Assembly (NCBI RefSeq): GCF_003790525.1
Contig: NZ_CP033636.1
Origin: Escherichia coli
GTDB lineage: Bacteria > Pseudomonadota > Gammaproteobacteria > Enterobacterales > Enterobacteriaceae
Strand: one strand, 5' to 3'
Length of the DNA stretch: 64,000 bases
Shown here piece by piece: positions 28,271 through 33,939 of the stretch. The notes beneath the pieces were generated by a model that saw only the letters and a list, made by a program, of their open reading frames with translations, did no database searches and had not been told where the DNA came from. The position numbers and the translations under genes were made by a program. Within the stretch, counting starts at the first letter, position 1, and each line of letters opens with the position of its first letter.

Positions 28271-28510
28271 ATGCAAAATCAAAATACCCCCGCTCAGGAA
28301 AAACACACCGTATACCTTTTTAATGCTGAACATGCTGACAAGACAGCCGCCAAGCAAGCCGGGAAACTCTTCACGCTGGACATTGAACACCCAATGACCC
28401 TCAACGATCTCTCGCTGCTGTGTGAGTCGGTCGCGGACGCTGTGGGAGCACCTGGCGGTATTAAATATGAAATCACAACAGAGCCTAATGGGGTTCAGGA
28501 GGAATACTGA
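28271..28510 (+). CDS. small protein, member of a paralogous pair
   Basis: 79-aa ORF; shares the block DIEHPMTLNDLSLLCESVADAVGAPGGIKY with the 33475..33699 product. Confidence 0.5.
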   Translation: MQNQNTPAQEKHTVYLFNAEHADKTAAKQAGKLFTLDIEHPMTLNDLSLLCESVADAVGAPGGIKYEITTEPNGVQEEY

Positions 28511-28572
28511 ATCAGTGTGGTGTGAGTCCATTTTAATTTGAGGTTTCATGAGTTCTATCGAGAGGCTGAAGT

Positions 28573-28884
28573 ATGACTTTGAAAATGGGAAGTCCCCGGA
28601 CTTCCAAGCCTGAGGGGCCATTTGTATTAATCACTTTTGAGGGGGACGAATTTCTTTTTGATGACAGACATAATGTCGTCAAGATAAATGGCAGGCCTAA
28701 AAAAATGGATGTAAAGCGAAATTATTTTGAGTCCGATCTGGGAGAAGGGAAAGCGAAATACTGGACTTTAAATATCGAAGAGGCTCATCGGTTCAATTCG
28801 ATTGATGAAGCGACAGAACAACTTTGTAAACTGAATCGCCCTCATCTGATCAAAATTCGCAAAGTTGAGGGGGTATCTGAATGA
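28573..28884 (+). CDS. hypothetical protein
   Basis: 103-aa ORF with RBS gagg; overlaps the next ORF start. Confidence 0.45.
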   Translation: MTLKMGSPRTSKPEGPFVLITFEGDEFLFDDRHNVVKINGRPKKMDVKRNYFESDLGEGKAKYWTLNIEEAHRFNSIDEATEQLCKLNRPHLIKIRKVEGVSE

Positions 28885-29069
28885 CCAAAGAGATGTTTTT
28901 ACGCATTTTAAATGAGGCACAGGCTCGTGTGGATAACGATTCGCTTCCGCTTGATGTTCGTATCCGGTCACGCACCACGGTAAATGATTGCGTCATCCGG
29001 GCAGATAAAGAGGGGTGGCCTATTGAGTATAAACAGAAGGTCTGGGTAGAGGCAGTCAGTGGCTGTTAA
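28881..29069 (+). CDS. hypothetical small protein
   Basis: 62-aa ORF overlapping the upstream stop (ATGA arrangement). Confidence 0.4.
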   Translation: MTKEMFLRILNEAQARVDNDSLPLDVRIRSRTTVNDCVIRADKEGWPIEYKQKVWVEAVSGC

Positions 29070-29129
29070 CTTCAGCGGTTACTTAAGCCAGCTCCTGTGC
29101 CCGTGAGATTAGTAAAGGCGGAAAATGAT

Positions 29130-29663
29130 ATGGTCAAGGTGATAAATATCAACGGGAATTTAGTTGAGTTACCTGAGCCCTCAGCAAAGTTATCCAAAGC
29201 GGAATCACCTGATGGTAGGTTCTCAAAACCTAAAAATAAGATCTCTAAAATACAGCGAGCTGAGCTGCGAATGAAATTTGGGGGGCGTTGTGCCTATTGT
29301 GGTTGCAAGCTTCCTGAAAAAGGGTGGCATGCCGATCATGTTGAGCCTGTTCGACGCGACTTTGAACTGGTGAGAGCCCCGGTCGGCAGCGGCGTAACTC
29401 ATGTTGCCCGAAGTACGGGTAAGGTTATGCACCCTGAACTGCATGCAATAGAAAACTTATTTCCATCATGCGCTCCCTGCAACCTTTTTAAAGGAGCTTT
29501 TAGTGTTGAAGGAATGAGAAATGAAATTACCAAACAGGTTGAACGGGCTCGCGCATATAGCGTGAATTTCCGTACCGCAGAACGTTTTGGTTTGCTTCAT
29601 ATTGTAGTAAAACCGGTCGTCTTCTGGTTTGAGCAGTATAACGAACAGAAACAAAACGAATAA
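29130..29663 (+). CDS. HNH endonuclease
   Basis: ORF 29097..29663; likely start at 29130 after aaaggcgg; HNH signature CAYCGC...WHADHVEPV and second zinc knuckle NLFPSCAPCN. Confidence 0.65.
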   Translation: MVKVININGNLVELPEPSAKLSKAESPDGRFSKPKNKISKIQRAELRMKFGGRCAYCGCKLPEKGWHADHVEPVRRDFELVRAPVGSGVTHVARSTGKVMHPELHAIENLFPSCAPCNLFKGAFSVEGMRNEITKQVERARAYSVNFRTAERFGLLHIVVKPVVFWFEQYNEQKQNE

Positions 29664-29774
29664 TTTCTCAGAGACATAAAACAAGTCAATCAACAGTGGT
29701 TAACCAATTAAAAAAGTCTATTAACTATTTTGATGCTGCTGAGGATCTGCCAGTTATATCCATAAAAGGAGAAA

Positions 29775-30386
29775 ATGATGTATCTGCATCTTGTGCCACG
29801 TATTCTTCACCATATGAAAAACAAGTGTACTCTCATGTCCGTGTCTGTCCCTGAATTGTCACTTGAGCTTAAAGCTGATTCGCTGGTGGCAATGAAACCC
29901 TATCCCAACAAGACCTACCACGTTGGCATGCTGAAGGGGCGACGAGCATTAAATGGCTTTCTGGTAAAGAGCCCACGAACTTTAGCTGAGTTCACAATGA
30001 TAACGCTCTGGGAAATAGACGGCTTTGGGGAAATTAGTCATACCGTAAAAACGCTCGTTCAGGACAACGACTATGACCTGGTCTCCCACGATGTCCTTTT
30101 GGCACATGCATACCATCAGACGGAGGAGGGATTGGGGTACCGTGTTCATCCATCCTATGACAGTTTAGCCCCTGTCGATTTTGAGCCAACAATGCAATCC
30201 CGGTACATAAAGGAATCCGACCTTTCTCACGACGTATGGGAAACCTATTCATGGGGGGAATTTCTGCGTTCGCGTGAAGAGACATTTCTGGCGATGACCA
30301 TTTCTTCTTCTCGTTTAAACCACCCTGCATTTATCAGAGGAAACCGGCTTCCTCAAACTGACCAGGCCATCATTATTAGTTCCTAA
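29775..30386 (+). CDS. hypothetical protein
   Basis: 203-aa ORF with RBS aaaaggag. Confidence 0.45.
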   Translation: MMYLHLVPRILHHMKNKCTLMSVSVPELSLELKADSLVAMKPYPNKTYHVGMLKGRRALNGFLVKSPRTLAEFTMITLWEIDGFGEISHTVKTLVQDNDYDLVSHDVLLAHAYHQTEEGLGYRVHPSYDSLAPVDFEPTMQSRYIKESDLSHDVWETYSWGEFLRSREETFLAMTISSSRLNHPAFIRGNRLPQTDQAIIISS

Positions 30387-30527
30387 CTCTGCCTGGAATA
30401 AAAGTCAGACGACGGGTCAGATTTCTAGCATCTAATTAAATGAATGCCCGGTAAGCCGGGCTTTGTCTATTCAGCAATCAGCTTCTAAAATATAGTTGCT
30501 AACCGAAATTCACTCCTCCAGCTTGTT

Positions 30528-30563
30528 AGCTAAAGTGCTTACTTATGTATAATAATTTACGTC
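30528..30563 (+). promoter_or_regulatory. island promoter module, variant
   Basis: ccagcttgttagc then 19 bp then tataat, upstream of the 30614 start. Confidence 0.4.
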
Positions 30564-30613
30564 TGGTTATAAATTTTTTTGAATCATTTAACACAACGTC
30601 TTAAGGATACATA

Positions 30614-30841
30614 ATGTATAAGTTCACTCCCGTCCAAATTATTGCTGATTATATACTGAGGTTTCTTAAAAATAATGCGGATGCCAAGCTTTACGAGGCA
30701 ATGCAGCGGCTTGAAACAAAAATCGGTCAGTTTATCGCTGATGGGGTTGATGAACATCAACTACGCTCTTCATTAAGCAAAGCCAGTCGATCTCGTTCCA
30801 GGGCGACTCTTATACAGGAGTGTGAGAAACTTATTTCGTAA
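30614..30841 (+). CDS. hypothetical small protein
   Basis: 75-aa ORF with RBS taaggat. Confidence 0.4.
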   Translation: MYKFTPVQIIADYILRFLKNNADAKLYEAMQRLETKIGQFIADGVDEHQLRSSLSKASRSRSRATLIQECEKLIS

Positions 30842-30858
30842 AAAGAGCATCATCCGGG

Positions 30859-32664: not shown

Positions 32665-32693
32665 TATGTCCTTGCTGTTGCCAGTCAAACATT

Positions 32694-32728
32694 GTCCGCC
32701 AGTCGAGCTGCTGGCGGATTGTTTTATA
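32694..32728 (+). terminator. candidate rho-independent terminator
   Basis: stem tccgccag / ctggcgga with 8-nt loop, followed by a T-rich tract attgtttta. Confidence 0.4.
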
Positions 32729-32743
32729 TAAGGAGGGGAAGGT

Positions 32744-33037
32744 ATGTCAGGTTTAAGCAGTTCCGCCCAGAAGCTTACAATGGCACAGATTTACGTGTTA
32801 CGACGGATGGCATCCGGCACGGTCTATGATATCTCTGGCAATTTCAGACGGGCCAGAGAACGGCGTACGTTTATGGGGAATCCTGATGATGTGACGTGCA
32901 GGAGCTCTCCGGTCCTGTTCCGGCTCGGCCTCGTGGAGTTATGCCAGCCAGCAAGCCATCTGGAGCCAGGTTTATACTATCGGCTCAAGTTGAGCTCCTC
33001 AGGGCATGAGGCTCTCAAGGCGAACGCACACCTCTAA
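32744..33037 (+). CDS. hypothetical protein
   Basis: 97-aa ORF with RBS aggagggg. Confidence 0.45.
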   Translation: MSGLSSSAQKLTMAQIYVLRRMASGTVYDISGNFRRARERRTFMGNPDDVTCRSSPVLFRLGLVELCQPASHLEPGLYYRLKLSSSGHEALKANAHL

Positions 33038-33065
33038 CATTTGAGATAGTTCGTTCGCAGCCAGG

Positions 33066-33076
33066 AAAGTAACTTT
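33066..33076. repeat. AAAGTWACTTT palindrome copy
   Basis: exact aaagtaacttt, about 30 bp after the stop of 32744..33037. Confidence 0.6.
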
Positions 33077-33216
33077 CACCTCAAGTGTGACCCTTACTAC
33101 CTCATTTATGAGTAAACCCCCCCTCTGATATGTCGAAAATGCTCATTTATACGAAAATAGTTTCTCTTCAGGTGTGATGTAATTACTGAGAATTCTCCCT
33201 GAATGGAAGGCAACCG

Positions 33217-33420
33217 ATGAAAATGTTTTTTACCCCTTATGTTCGTATCGTTTTCTATTTTTGCGCATTGATTTTTATTGTTTACAGTTTCAGTGATTTT
33301 TTCCAGGGCGTCCCTGACAGCACCTTCTTCAGTGCGGTCATCATGCTACTTGTTATCGGAACCATTGTTGCCCGGCATCTGGATCGCAAAAAATCTCTCA
33401 AAAATACTTCACAGATTTAA
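33217..33420 (+). CDS. hypothetical small membrane protein
   Basis: 67-aa ORF with two hydrophobic segments. Confidence 0.35.
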   Translation: MKMFFTPYVRIVFYFCALIFIVYSFSDFFQGVPDSTFFSAVIMLLVIGTIVARHLDRKKSLKNTSQI

Positions 33421-33474
33421 GTTTCAACTCAGGCCACTCTCGGGTGGCTTTTATAATTTAATAAGGACCGGTTC

Positions 33475-33699
33475 ATGCATAACCACGAAATTCAGACCAT
33501 TGCTATATTTAGTGCCCAGTATAAAAACATCGAAGATGCTGAAAATGCAGGTGCTTTATATTCTGTAGATATTGAATATCCGATGACACTAAATGATTTA
33601 TCGCGGCTTTGCGACTCTATTGCCGAAGCAGTAGGTGTGCCTGGCGGCGTCAAATACCAGTTCGTGTCCCAGCCGGAAGCGCATGAAACCAGCTTCTGA
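33475..33699 (+). CDS. small protein, paralog of the 28271 product
   Basis: 74-aa ORF; block DIEYPMTLNDLSRLCDSIAEAVGVPGGVKY. Confidence 0.5.
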   Translation: MHNHEIQTIAIFSAQYKNIEDAENAGALYSVDIEYPMTLNDLSRLCDSIAEAVGVPGGVKYQFVSQPEAHETSF

Positions 33700-33738
33700 T
33701 AACCAGTAACCAAACTGCCTAAAAGCAGGTGCAAAGCC

Positions 33739-33939
33739 ATGAAACAAACAAAGTCTTCTATGTCACGTATTGTGCAGCTGTACGACGGGAGCCGATACGG
33801 AAACTGCGAGCAGGCTGATAACGAAGGAGAGCTTTTTACGGTGGTGTTGAATAAGCCTTCGCAGATCGATGACATCCGTAAAATCGTAGACACAACCGCC
33901 GAAGTACTTGGCAAAGCTTTGCCAGTACTCCTCTTATAA
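33739..33939 (+). CDS. hypothetical small protein
   Basis: 66-aa ORF; loose resemblance to the 28271/33475 pair. Confidence 0.35.
   Translation: MKQTKSSMSRIVQLYDGSRYGNCEQADNEGELFTVVLNKPSQIDDIRKIVDTTAEVLGKALPVLLL

What the first reader, a model, noticed from the sequence alone, without database searches (positions are those of the whole stretch)
28271..33939. Paralogous ~75-aa proteins duplicated within the island
The products of 28271..28510 and 33475..33699 share a conserved core (DIEHPMTLNDLSLLCESVADAVGAPGGIKY versus DIEYPMTLNDLSRLCDSIAEAVGVPGGVKY), and 33739..33939 may be a distant third copy. Duplicated small proteins are common among anti-defence or regulatory families.
Basis: seen in the sequence. 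Interest (0 to 1): 0.4.

Follow-up and report, generated by a model that had tools for sequence, protein, structure and literature searches.

The report
Orphan small-protein family of IncHI plasmids
Three small acidic proteins on this IncHI2 resistance plasmid are true ancient paralogs of a family found only on IncHI-type plasmids; two of them form a conserved cassette with a tiny membrane protein, and what they do is still unknown.

Summary
ORFs 28271..28510 (A), 33475..33699 (B) and 33739..33939 (C) are paralogs: A-B are 50% identical over 64 aa (E 2e-26), C-B 34% over 41 aa (E 4e-10), and subfamily HMMs detect each other.

The window is conserved IncHI2 plasmid backbone, not an island. The family matches nothing in Pfam, NCBIfam, PHROGs, PADLOC or PDB. 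An exhaustive search of 1.84 billion proteins gave only 27 hits. It occurs in 1,299 of 72,556 PLSDB plasmids, all large, almost all typed conjugative, and IncHI-type where checked.

New findings:
- B, or a fused two-domain version, always follows a homologous 67-aa two-helix membrane protein gene (33217..33420). A positionally conserved hairpin lies between them, in nine loci representing eight lineages.
- B is 80% identical between IncHI1 and IncHI2 with synonymous sites saturated, so it is under strong purifying selection.
- The cassette, or A, usually sits next to a DndC-like 800-aa protein.
- Both transcription units lie about 150 bp downstream of a plasmid-wide palindrome, AAAGTWACTTT.

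Function is unresolved. The proteins are acidic, with a small beta-alpha-beta-alpha-beta fold and no significant structural match. My best guess, at low confidence, is non-enzymatic protein-binding factors for plasmid establishment or host interference. The anti-defence reading is untested and DNA binding is unlikely.

The parts
28271..28510 (+). Paralog A, 79 aa, pI 4.6. It is a solo copy 250 bp downstream of the DndC-like gene. RefSeq WP_001180999.1, 'hypothetical protein'.
   Evidence: The IncHI1 ortholog is 65% identical, dN/dS 0.32.
33217..33420 (+). TM67, a 67-aa basic protein (pI 9.7) with two hydrophobic helices. It is the first gene of the cassette. WP_000781545.1.
   Evidence: Homologs of 67-68 aa immediately precede a family member in eight plasmid lineages. 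No Pfam or PADLOC hit.
33431..33450 (+). GC-rich stem-loop followed by a T-run, between the TM67 stop codon and the B start codon. It looks like an intrinsic terminator or attenuator.
   Evidence: terminator-like site. A hairpin at the same position, with different sequence, is present in all 9 loci examined.
33475..33699 (+). Paralog B, 74 aa, pI 4.4. It is the most conserved member. WP_000551490.1.
   Evidence: It is 80% identical to the IncHI1 ortholog, with dN 0.12 and dS saturated. The AF2 model has pLDDT 78 and a b-a-b-a-b fold.
33739..33939 (+). Paralog C, 66 aa, pI 5.2. It is a divergent subtype lying in tandem 39 nt after B. WP_000814954.1.
   Evidence: C-type orthologs sit directly after B in IncHI1A, IncHI1B and L004; in L008 C lies on the same plasmid, separated from B by the DUF6012 gene.
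28128..28138 (.). Palindrome AAAGTAACTTT (extended directional form CCAGAAAAGTAACTTT at 28123), 143 bp upstream of the A start codon.
33066..33076 (.). Palindrome AAAGTAACTTT (extended form CCAGGAAAGTAACTTT at 33061), 151 bp upstream of the TM67 start codon.
25637..28021 (+). Context: a 794-aa DndC-like / PAPS-reductase-family protein. It is the recurrent upstream neighbour of the cassette or of A.
   Evidence: Pfam PAPS_reduct E 1.3e-5. PADLOC DndC E 4e-38. The same neighbour is seen in L004, L008, L014, L018 and IncHI1.
29775..30386 (+). Context: DUF6012 protein, a recurrent neighbour of family members in other lineages.
   Evidence: E 1e-33. It is adjacent in L008, L018, L011 and L021.

Best explanation
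SHOWN. A, B and C are real protein-coding paralogs of one orphan family of about 60-aa acidic alpha/beta domains. The family is confined to large plasmids, IncHI-type (MOBH relaxase, F-type pilus) where typing was checked.

INFERRED. B and C act together as a two-subunit unit. Other plasmids encode the equivalent as one two-domain polypeptide. They are co-expressed with, and probably act with or on, the small inner-membrane protein TM67 encoded just upstream; a conserved hairpin sets the expression ratio. A is an old solo copy kept beside the DndC-like gene.

INFERRED, LOW CONFIDENCE. The domains are too small and too poor in invariant residues to be enzymes, and too acidic to bind DNA. The most likely mode of action is stoichiometric binding of a conserved partner protein, from the host or the plasmid, in support of plasmid establishment or host interference. 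Transcription would come from promoters that carry the backbone-wide AAAGTWACTTT palindrome, which is also found upstream of mobI and other transfer genes.
For: - Paralogy and coding reality. B is 80% identical between IncHI2 and IncHI1 with dS saturated. That is more conserved than the DndC-like protein (75%), DUF957 (74%) or DUF3085 (52%).
- Restriction to IncHI-like plasmids: 1,299 of 72,556 PLSDB records, 1,209 of them typed conjugative. Only 27 hits among 1.84e9 representatives.
- Pairing of B and C: the tandem order is conserved in IncHI2, IncHI1A, IncHI1B and L004. Natural fusions of 155-159 aa carry two family domains, with i-E 2e-8 and 5.5e-11 against an HMM built without fusions.
- Link to TM67: a homologous 2-TM gene immediately precedes B or the fusion in eight lineages, and a hairpin is conserved in position in 9/9 loci.
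- Non-enzymatic and not DNA-binding: only one invariant column (Ala) across the family; pI 4.1-5.8.
- Fold: a small b-a-b-a-b fold with pLDDT 78.
- Shared cis element: the palindrome lies 143 and 151 bp upstream of A and TM67 and also upstream of mobI, a trhR-like gene and an Ig-like protein gene. There are 43 copies in a 241.6-kb IncHI2 plasmid against 0.15 expected, and none in the resistance region.
- Context: an orphan Mrr_N-methyltransferase, a DndC-like gene, HNH, Hok and RelE/ParE.
- Literature gap: MOB-H/IncHI1 plasmids have no recognised anti-defence genes.
Against: - No partner, phenotype or expression data exist.
- There is no significant structural or sequence similarity to any characterised protein.
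- The linked B-C AlphaFold model was uninformative (pLDDT 54, pTM 0.39), so the heterodimer rests on gene order and fusions only.
- The fused domains are both closer to the B type, so they are not clean B+C orthologs.
- The genes are not in the conventionally defined leading region, and their upstream regions show no ssDNA-promoter-like folding (z -1.4 and +1.2).
- High conservation of B is atypical for arms-race anti-defence proteins.
- The palindrome's role as an operator is itself only an inference.
Confidence: 0.35

Rival explanations
1. Toxin-antitoxin-like addiction module. TM67 would be a small membrane-damaging toxin and B (with C) its protein antitoxin. A would be an orphan antitoxin copy.
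For: - A small hydrophobic 2-TM protein gene is strictly adjacent to small soluble acidic protein genes in eight lineages.
- The setting is a large low-copy plasmid, next to other addiction systems (Hok, RelE/ParE).
- A solo soluble copy (A) is tolerated, but I saw no solo TM67.
- The weak best Foldseek resemblance is to the phage T4 antitoxin Dmd (TM 0.39-0.46, prob 0.3).
Against: - The putative toxin gene comes first, and a conserved hairpin or terminator lies between it and the 'antitoxin'. That would give toxin at least equal to antitoxin, the opposite of TA logic.
- B is far more conserved than TM67 (80% vs 28%).
- No TA or PADLOC profile matches.
- Protein antitoxins for membrane toxins are rare (my own knowledge).
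- Frameshifted B variants with an unknown TM67 state exist in databases, but they may be sequencing errors.
Confidence: 0.15
2. Accessory subunits of the neighbouring DndC-like DNA-modification enzyme, for example specificity, carrier or regulatory subunits that protect plasmid DNA from restriction.
For: The cassette or A lies directly downstream of the 800-aa DndC-like gene in IncHI2, IncHI1, L004, L008, L014 and L018. DndC-type PP-loop enzymes normally need partner proteins (established knowledge of Dnd systems). An Mrr_N-methyltransferase lies in the same block.
Against: - In Klebsiella-type plasmids the TM67-fusion cassette follows the replication gene with no PAPS-reductase gene within 8 kb.
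- In the window, B and C are 5.4 kb from the DndC-like gene, with a separate palindrome and promoter region.
- There is no similarity to DndA, B, D or E.
- A membrane protein has no obvious place in this model.
Confidence: 0.12
3. Accessory components or modulators of conjugation itself, expressed in the donor as part of the transfer regulon. Examples would be mating-pair, exclusion or thermoregulation functions.
For: The same palindrome precedes A, TM67-B-C, mobI, the trhR-like gene and an Ig-like protein gene. The family is strictly confined to MOBH/MPF_F IncHI-type plasmids. TM67 is an inner-membrane protein.
Against: The palindrome occurs 43 times all over the backbone, including next to partition and replication genes, so it is not specific to transfer genes. 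The genes lie outside the mapped Tra1 and Tra2 regions. No similarity to any Tra/Trh protein was found.
Confidence: 0.13
4. Small transcription regulators or DNA-binding proteins.
For: Their small size and duplication. Their genes sit downstream of a shared palindromic element.
Against: All members are acidic, with net charge -1 to -13 and pI 4.1-5.8. No HTH, RHH or other DNA-binding family is detected even at E 10. The predicted fold is a b-a-b-a-b sandwich without a DNA-binding match.
Confidence: 0.04
5. Chance ORFs or decaying pseudogenes with no function.
For: None beyond their small size and the 'hypothetical' annotation.
Against: There is strong purifying selection: B has dN 0.12 with dS saturated, and A has dN/dS 0.32. 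Synteny is conserved across at least eight lineages, ribosome-binding sites are present, and fused versions retain both domains.
Confidence: 0.01

Closest known systems
Small acidic establishment and anti-defence proteins of conjugative-plasmid leading regions (ArdA, KlcA/ArdB, PsiB; Samuel et al. 2024, PMC11541004)
   Same: They are small, acidic and non-enzymatic, encoded on conjugative plasmids in a long co-oriented block that also holds orphan methyltransferases and toxin-antitoxin genes, and paralogs are common.
   Different: - There is no sequence or fold similarity.
- The genes lie on the relaxase side of oriT, 25-30 kb away.
- No ssDNA-promoter-like structure is present.
- They are coupled to a membrane protein.
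- B is unusually conserved.
Phage T4 Dmd antitoxin (PDB 5hy3_B, 5i8j_A)
   Same: It is a protein of about 60 aa with a small beta-sheet-plus-helix fold, made by a mobile element to neutralise a host protein. It is among the best, though weak, Foldseek matches.
Two-helix membrane protein plus small soluble partner modules (GhoT/GhoS type V TA; CptA(YgfX)/CptB(SdhE) type IV TA)
   Same: A small 2-TM inner-membrane protein is encoded next to a small soluble acidic alpha/beta protein.
   Different: The gene order is reversed, with the membrane protein first. No homology was detected. A hairpin lies between the genes. There are two soluble paralogs or a fused pair. Toxicity is untested. This resemblance is recalled from my own knowledge and was not tested.
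Ferredoxin-like / PurS / ACT-type small alpha-beta sandwiches
KorB operator (OB) network of IncP plasmids, as an analogy for the AAAGTWACTTT palindrome
   Same: A short perfect palindrome is repeated many times around a plasmid backbone, mostly in intergenic regions upstream of operons.
   Different: The sequence and plasmid family are different. The binding protein is unknown and nothing has been tested. The analogy comes from my own knowledge.

Membership tests
Any curated protein family (Pfam-A, NCBIfam, PHROGs, PADLOC) | A significant profile-HMM match | tested here: not met
   A, B and C have no family at E <= 1 in Pfam or NCBIfam. There is one PHROG hit at E 0.16 and none in PADLOC. Scanning all 15 family members at E <= 10 gave no family matched by more than one member.
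Anti-restriction ArdA / KlcA(ArdB) / PsiB | Sequence or fold homology to the ArdA, ArdB/KlcA or PsiB families | tested here: not met
Leading-region anti-defence island (Samuel et al. 2024) | Location within the first tens of ORFs after oriT, on the side opposite the relaxase | tested here: not met
   oriT is taken to lie next to mobI/traH, which puts it at about 58.8-59.5 kb in the window. A, B and C lie 25-30 kb away, beyond the mobI-mobH-traD operon on the relaxase side (convention). The actual polarity of IncHI transfer was not found in the papers available to me.
Leading-region anti-defence island (Samuel et al. 2024) | Genes encoded so that the transferred strand is the template, with Frpo/ssi-type ssDNA promoters | tested here: inconclusive
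   All the genes are co-oriented towards oriT, but which strand is transferred is unknown. The upstream regions fold no better than shuffles as ssDNA (z -1.41 and +1.15). There are no Rfam hits.
Leading-region anti-defence island (Samuel et al. 2024) | Co-location with orphan methyltransferases and toxin-antitoxin genes | tested here: met
   The same co-oriented block contains an Mrr_N-N6/N4 methyltransferase, a DndC-like gene, RelE/ParE and Hok.
Toxin-antitoxin module | Adjacent, co-transcribed toxin and antitoxin genes | tested here: inconclusive
   TM67 and B are adjacent in eight lineages, but a terminator-like hairpin separates them. A has no TM partner.
Toxin-antitoxin module | Toxicity of one component that is neutralised by the other | not testable with these tools
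   This needs expression experiments.
Dnd phosphorothioation system accessory proteins (DndA/B/D/E) | Homology to a Dnd accessory protein, and co-occurrence with DndC | tested here: not met
   Only the 794-aa neighbour matches DndC (E 4e-38). A, B, C and TM67 match nothing in PADLOC. Co-occurrence with the DndC-like gene is frequent but not universal.
DNA-binding transcription regulators | A recognisable DNA-binding domain and a basic or neutral surface | tested here: not met
   No such domain was found. pI is 4.1-5.8 for all members.

The most novel reading that the evidence does not exclude
TM67 plus the B/C pair (or the fused two-domain protein) would be a previously unrecognised, IncHI-specific functional module. 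It would be a membrane-anchored two-subunit inhibitor that neutralises a conserved host barrier to plasmid establishment or maintenance. It would be switched on together with transfer genes through a plasmid-wide AAAGTWACTTT operator network. That would supply the 'missing' counter-defence or establishment functions of MOB-H plasmids such as R27 and the mcr-1/mcr-9 IncHI2 plasmids.
Probability: 0.15. Interest if true: 0.65.

Novelty: new variant of a known kind. Interest (0 to 1): 0.35.

Why it matters
IncHI plasmids carry mcr-1, mcr-9, multidrug resistance in S. Typhi, and hybrid resistance plasmids in Klebsiella. About half of their backbone is unannotated. A recent analysis found no recognisable anti-defence genes in the MOB-H/IncHI1 plasmids it examined (IncHI2 was excluded from that analysis) and called their establishment strategy unexplained.

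This family is among the most conserved unknowns in that backbone, and it now has a defined architecture: a membrane protein, a hairpin, and two paralogous domains. That makes it a concrete, cheap knockout target. As it stands, however, this is a well-delimited family of unknown function, not a demonstrated new mechanism.

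Tried and rejected
- **Profile libraries.** Pfam, NCBIfam, PHROGs and PADLOC were tried on A, B and C, and Pfam and PHROGs also on all 15 family members at E <= 10. 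Nothing consistent came up.
- **PDB sequence search with the family profile.** This gave only chance hits at E about 1, to HIV RT.
- **AlphaFold of B-linker-C.** I used a 6-row paired alignment to test a heterodimer. The result was pLDDT 54 and pTM 0.39, which is uninformative.
- **Large multi-repeat hits in the exhaustive search.** P0055 and P0058 were inspected and dismissed as repeat-driven chance similarity. P0044, P0048 and P0052 were dismissed on their 4-15 short matched stretches without retrieving the sequences.
- **Frpo-like ssDNA promoter idea.** The upstream regions fold no better than shuffles, and there is no Rfam family in the window.
- **Polarity of IncHI/MOBH transfer.** The key papers (Lawley 2002, Ceccarelli 2008) are not held, and reviews did not state it.
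- **Literature search for the palindrome sequence.** It found no plasmid-related paper.
- **Megablast of the L004-type locus against PLSDB.** No match, so that lineage is not typed.
- **Sigma-70 promoter scan of 27.9-34.3 kb.** It found no more sites than shuffles, so the promoters remain unmapped.

Full report
**1. Where the window comes from**

The 6.2-kb stretch around the finding is 99-100% identical to plasmids in 250 of 5,426 complete E. coli genomes; 272 of 275 matching places are on plasmids. The flanks carry repHI2 on the left. On the right they carry the Tra1 genes mobI, mobH relaxase, traD and trhH. The window is therefore IncHI2 plasmid backbone (for example pSA186_MCR1), not a genomic island.

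In RefSeq the three ORFs are 'hypothetical protein': WP_001180999.1, WP_000551490.1 and WP_000814954.1.

**2. The observation**

The ORFs are present as described: A is 28271..28510 (79 aa), B is 33475..33699 (74 aa) and C is 33739..33939 (66 aa), all on the + strand. Each has an acceptable ribosome-binding site.

| Pair | Identity | E-value |
|---|---|---|
| A vs B | 50% over 64 aa, ungapped | 2e-26 |
| C vs B | 34% over 41 aa | 4e-10 |
| C vs A | 29% | 1e-5 |

HMMs built from one subtype alone detect the other subtype: the B-type HMM finds C at 1.2e-10, and the C-type HMM finds B at 3.6e-12. A six-frame scan finds no fourth copy.

**3. How wide the family is**

No Pfam, NCBIfam, PHROGs or PADLOC family matches, and no PDB sequence matches.

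An exhaustive HMMER search of 1.84 billion representative proteins returned 27 hits at E <= 1e-3. After removing repeat-protein artefacts and frameshift variants, about ten distinct members remain. They are 60-80 aa long, plus a 155-aa protein with two domains.

tblastn finds the family in 1,299 of 72,556 PLSDB plasmids. By identity, 995 are at 95% or above, 271 at 60-80% and 33 below 60%. All listed records are 170-410 kb, 1,209 are typed conjugative, and most carry two detectable copies. Records that were checked are typed IncHI1A or IncHI1B with MOBH and MPF_F.

**4. Conservation**

Comparison of IncHI2 with IncHI1A orthologs:

| Protein | aa identity | Substitution rates |
|---|---|---|
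| B | 80% | dN 0.12, dS saturated |
| DndC-like | 75% | dN/dS 0.058 |
| DUF957 | 74% | dN/dS 0.061 |
| A | 65% | dN/dS 0.32 |
| DUF3085 | 52% | dS saturated |
| C | 48% | dS saturated |
| TM67 | 28% | dS saturated |

B is thus one of the most constrained proteins in the block. The A/B/C duplications predate the IncHI1-IncHI2 split.

**5. The cassette**

In the window, B and C follow a 67-aa ORF (33217..33420) with two hydrophobic helices and a basic tail. Homologous 67-68-aa proteins immediately precede a family member in every lineage with enough context:
- IncHI2, IncHI1A and IncHI1B.
- The unclassified lineages L004, L008, L014 and L018.
- The Klebsiella-type plasmids L011, L021 and L024.

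In the Klebsiella-type plasmids the partner is a single protein of 155-159 aa with two family domains. An HMM built without fusion proteins scores them at i-E 2e-8 and 5.5e-11.

A GC-rich hairpin sits just after the TM67 stop codon in all nine loci, with unrelated stem sequences. In IncHI1 and IncHI2 it is followed by a T-run.

The tandem B-then-C order recurs in IncHI1A, IncHI1B and L004. In L008 the DUF6012 gene separates B from C.

Gene order and the fusions argue that two family domains work together, and together with TM67. A direct test by AlphaFold on a linked B-C construct failed: pLDDT 54 with a shallow alignment.

**6. Neighbourhood**

The cassette, or A, lies just downstream of a protein of about 800 aa whose N-terminal half matches DndC profiles (E 4e-38) and Pfam PAPS_reduct. 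This holds in IncHI2, IncHI1, L004, L008, L014 and L018, but not in the Klebsiella-type plasmids.

DUF6012 is a second frequent neighbour. The wider block is about 35 kb of co-oriented small ORFs. It includes an Mrr_N-methyltransferase, HNH, DUF957, DUF3085, RelE/ParE and Hok.

**7. Regulatory hint**

An 11-bp perfect palindrome, AAAGTWACTTT, occurs at 17 sites in the window against 0.06 expected. Fifteen of the sites are intergenic, typically 90-230 bp upstream of the first gene of a co-oriented cluster:

| Downstream gene | Distance to start codon |
|---|---|
| A | 143 bp |
| TM67 | 151 bp |
| mobI | 187 bp |
| trhR-like gene | 87 bp |
| Ig-like protein gene | 167 and 232 bp |

A complete IncHI2 plasmid has 43 sites against 0.15 expected, with none in its 40-kb resistance region. 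IncHI1 and the unclassified relatives also carry the palindrome at high density. I found no paper describing it. It looks like a backbone-wide operator, which would place A and TM67-B-C in a common regulon with transfer genes. This is inference only.

**8. Structure**

AlphaFold2 with the 15-sequence family alignment gives a b1-a1-b2-a2-b3 domain with pLDDT 78. Fold searches gave nothing significant:
- Foldseek against PDB: best E 0.78. T4 Dmd appears at TM about 0.4.
- BFVD: best E 0.07, to uncharacterised phage proteins.

The family alignment has one invariant column, and all members are acidic with pI 4.1-5.8. This argues against both an enzyme and a DNA-binding regulator, and for a protein-binding module.

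**9. Is it anti-defence?**

For:
- The proteins are small and acidic.
- Paralogs are present.
- The neighbourhood holds orphan DNA-modification genes and TA genes.
- It is an acknowledged puzzle that MOB-H/IncHI1 plasmids have no recognisable anti-defence genes.

Against:
- oriT adjoins mobI/traH. By the usual convention, the leading region is the side opposite the relaxase. The genes are on the relaxase side, 25-30 kb away.
- Their upstream regions have no ssDNA-promoter-like structure.
- B is highly conserved rather than fast-evolving.

The real polarity of IncHI transfer could not be retrieved. The anti-defence idea is therefore neither supported nor excluded.

**10. Verdict**

This is a real, ancient, plasmid-lineage-specific orphan family with a newly defined cassette architecture. 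Its function is unknown.

My best-supported mechanistic statement is that the proteins are non-enzymatic, paired protein-binding domains acting with a small membrane protein in plasmid establishment or host interaction (confidence about 0.35). The rivals are:
- a TA-like module (0.15);
- a conjugation accessory (0.13);
- a partner of the DndC-like enzyme (0.12);
- a DNA-binding regulator (0.04).

Interest is modest. The family is worth a knockout in R27 or an IncHI2 plasmid, but nothing here shows a new mechanism.

Noticed in passing
window 886, 951, 7654, 9878, 18867, 23079, 28128, 30859, 33066, 41505, 41631, 47457, 52359, 54089, 58950, 59435, 62495 (11-bp sites): The perfect palindrome AAAGTWACTTT occurs at 17 sites against 0.06 expected, and 15 of 17 are intergenic, mostly 90-230 bp upstream of operon starts, including mobI, a trhR-like gene and Ig-like protein genes. 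A whole IncHI2 plasmid has 43 sites (0.15 expected), with none in the resistance region. The palindrome is also dense in IncHI1 and unclassified IncHI-like loci. A directional extended form, CCRGRAAAGTWACTTT, points with the downstream genes. It is a candidate plasmid-wide operator, and I found no paper describing it.
   Followed up: partly
window 25637..28021 (+): A 794-aa protein has an N-terminal half that matches DndC profiles (E 4e-38) and, weakly, BrxP. No other dnd genes are nearby, and an Mrr_N-N6/N4 methyltransferase lies at 21203..22453 in the same block. This looks like an orphan DNA-modification enzyme conserved across IncHI1, IncHI2 and related plasmids.
   Followed up: partly
window 33217..33450 (+); loci L004, L008, L011, L014, L017, L018, L020, L021: The 67-aa two-helix membrane protein family (63 clusters in 5.8e9 proteins, all about 67 aa) always lies directly upstream of a family member. 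A GC-rich hairpin, conserved in position but not in sequence, follows its stop codon.
   Followed up: yes
L011 8001-8468; L021 5291-5770; L024 5289-5768: In very widespread Klebsiella-type large plasmids, two family domains are fused into one protein of 155-159 aa. The preceding TM protein P0118 is listed in 1,538 blocks of the assembly collection. The fusion gene is followed by a 127-aa protein whose N-terminus resembles a second copy of the TM protein.
   Followed up: partly
window ~13800..48300 (+ strand): About 45 consecutive small ORFs are nearly all on the + strand, pointing towards Tra1/oriT, and most are 'hypothetical'. They are interrupted only by a short minus-strand group at 38.3-40.6 kb. 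Whether this block enters the recipient first or last depends on the unmapped polarity of IncHI transfer.
   Followed up: partly
window ~35950..37790: Relative to pSA186_MCR1, the window carries an insertion of about 1.45 kb between the 201-aa ORF and hok. The insertion starts with an IS3-family orfA-like ORF at 36283..36804, and hok is displaced to 37790..37909.
   Followed up: no
window 29097..29663 (+): An HNH endonuclease gives weak matches to PtuB (Septu) and HNH profiles in PADLOC (E about 1e-4), with no PtuA partner. It lies in the same transcription unit as paralog A.
   Followed up: no
window 1118..3574 (+), 7768..10188 (-), 13809..16199 (+): Three genes for large Ig-like-domain proteins (about 800 aa each) surround repHI2. 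A separate gene annotated rsp (IncHI-type conjugal transfer protein RSP) lies in Tra2 of pSA186_MCR1; any relationship between these three and RSP was not tested. Palindrome sites lie upstream of the first one.
   Followed up: no
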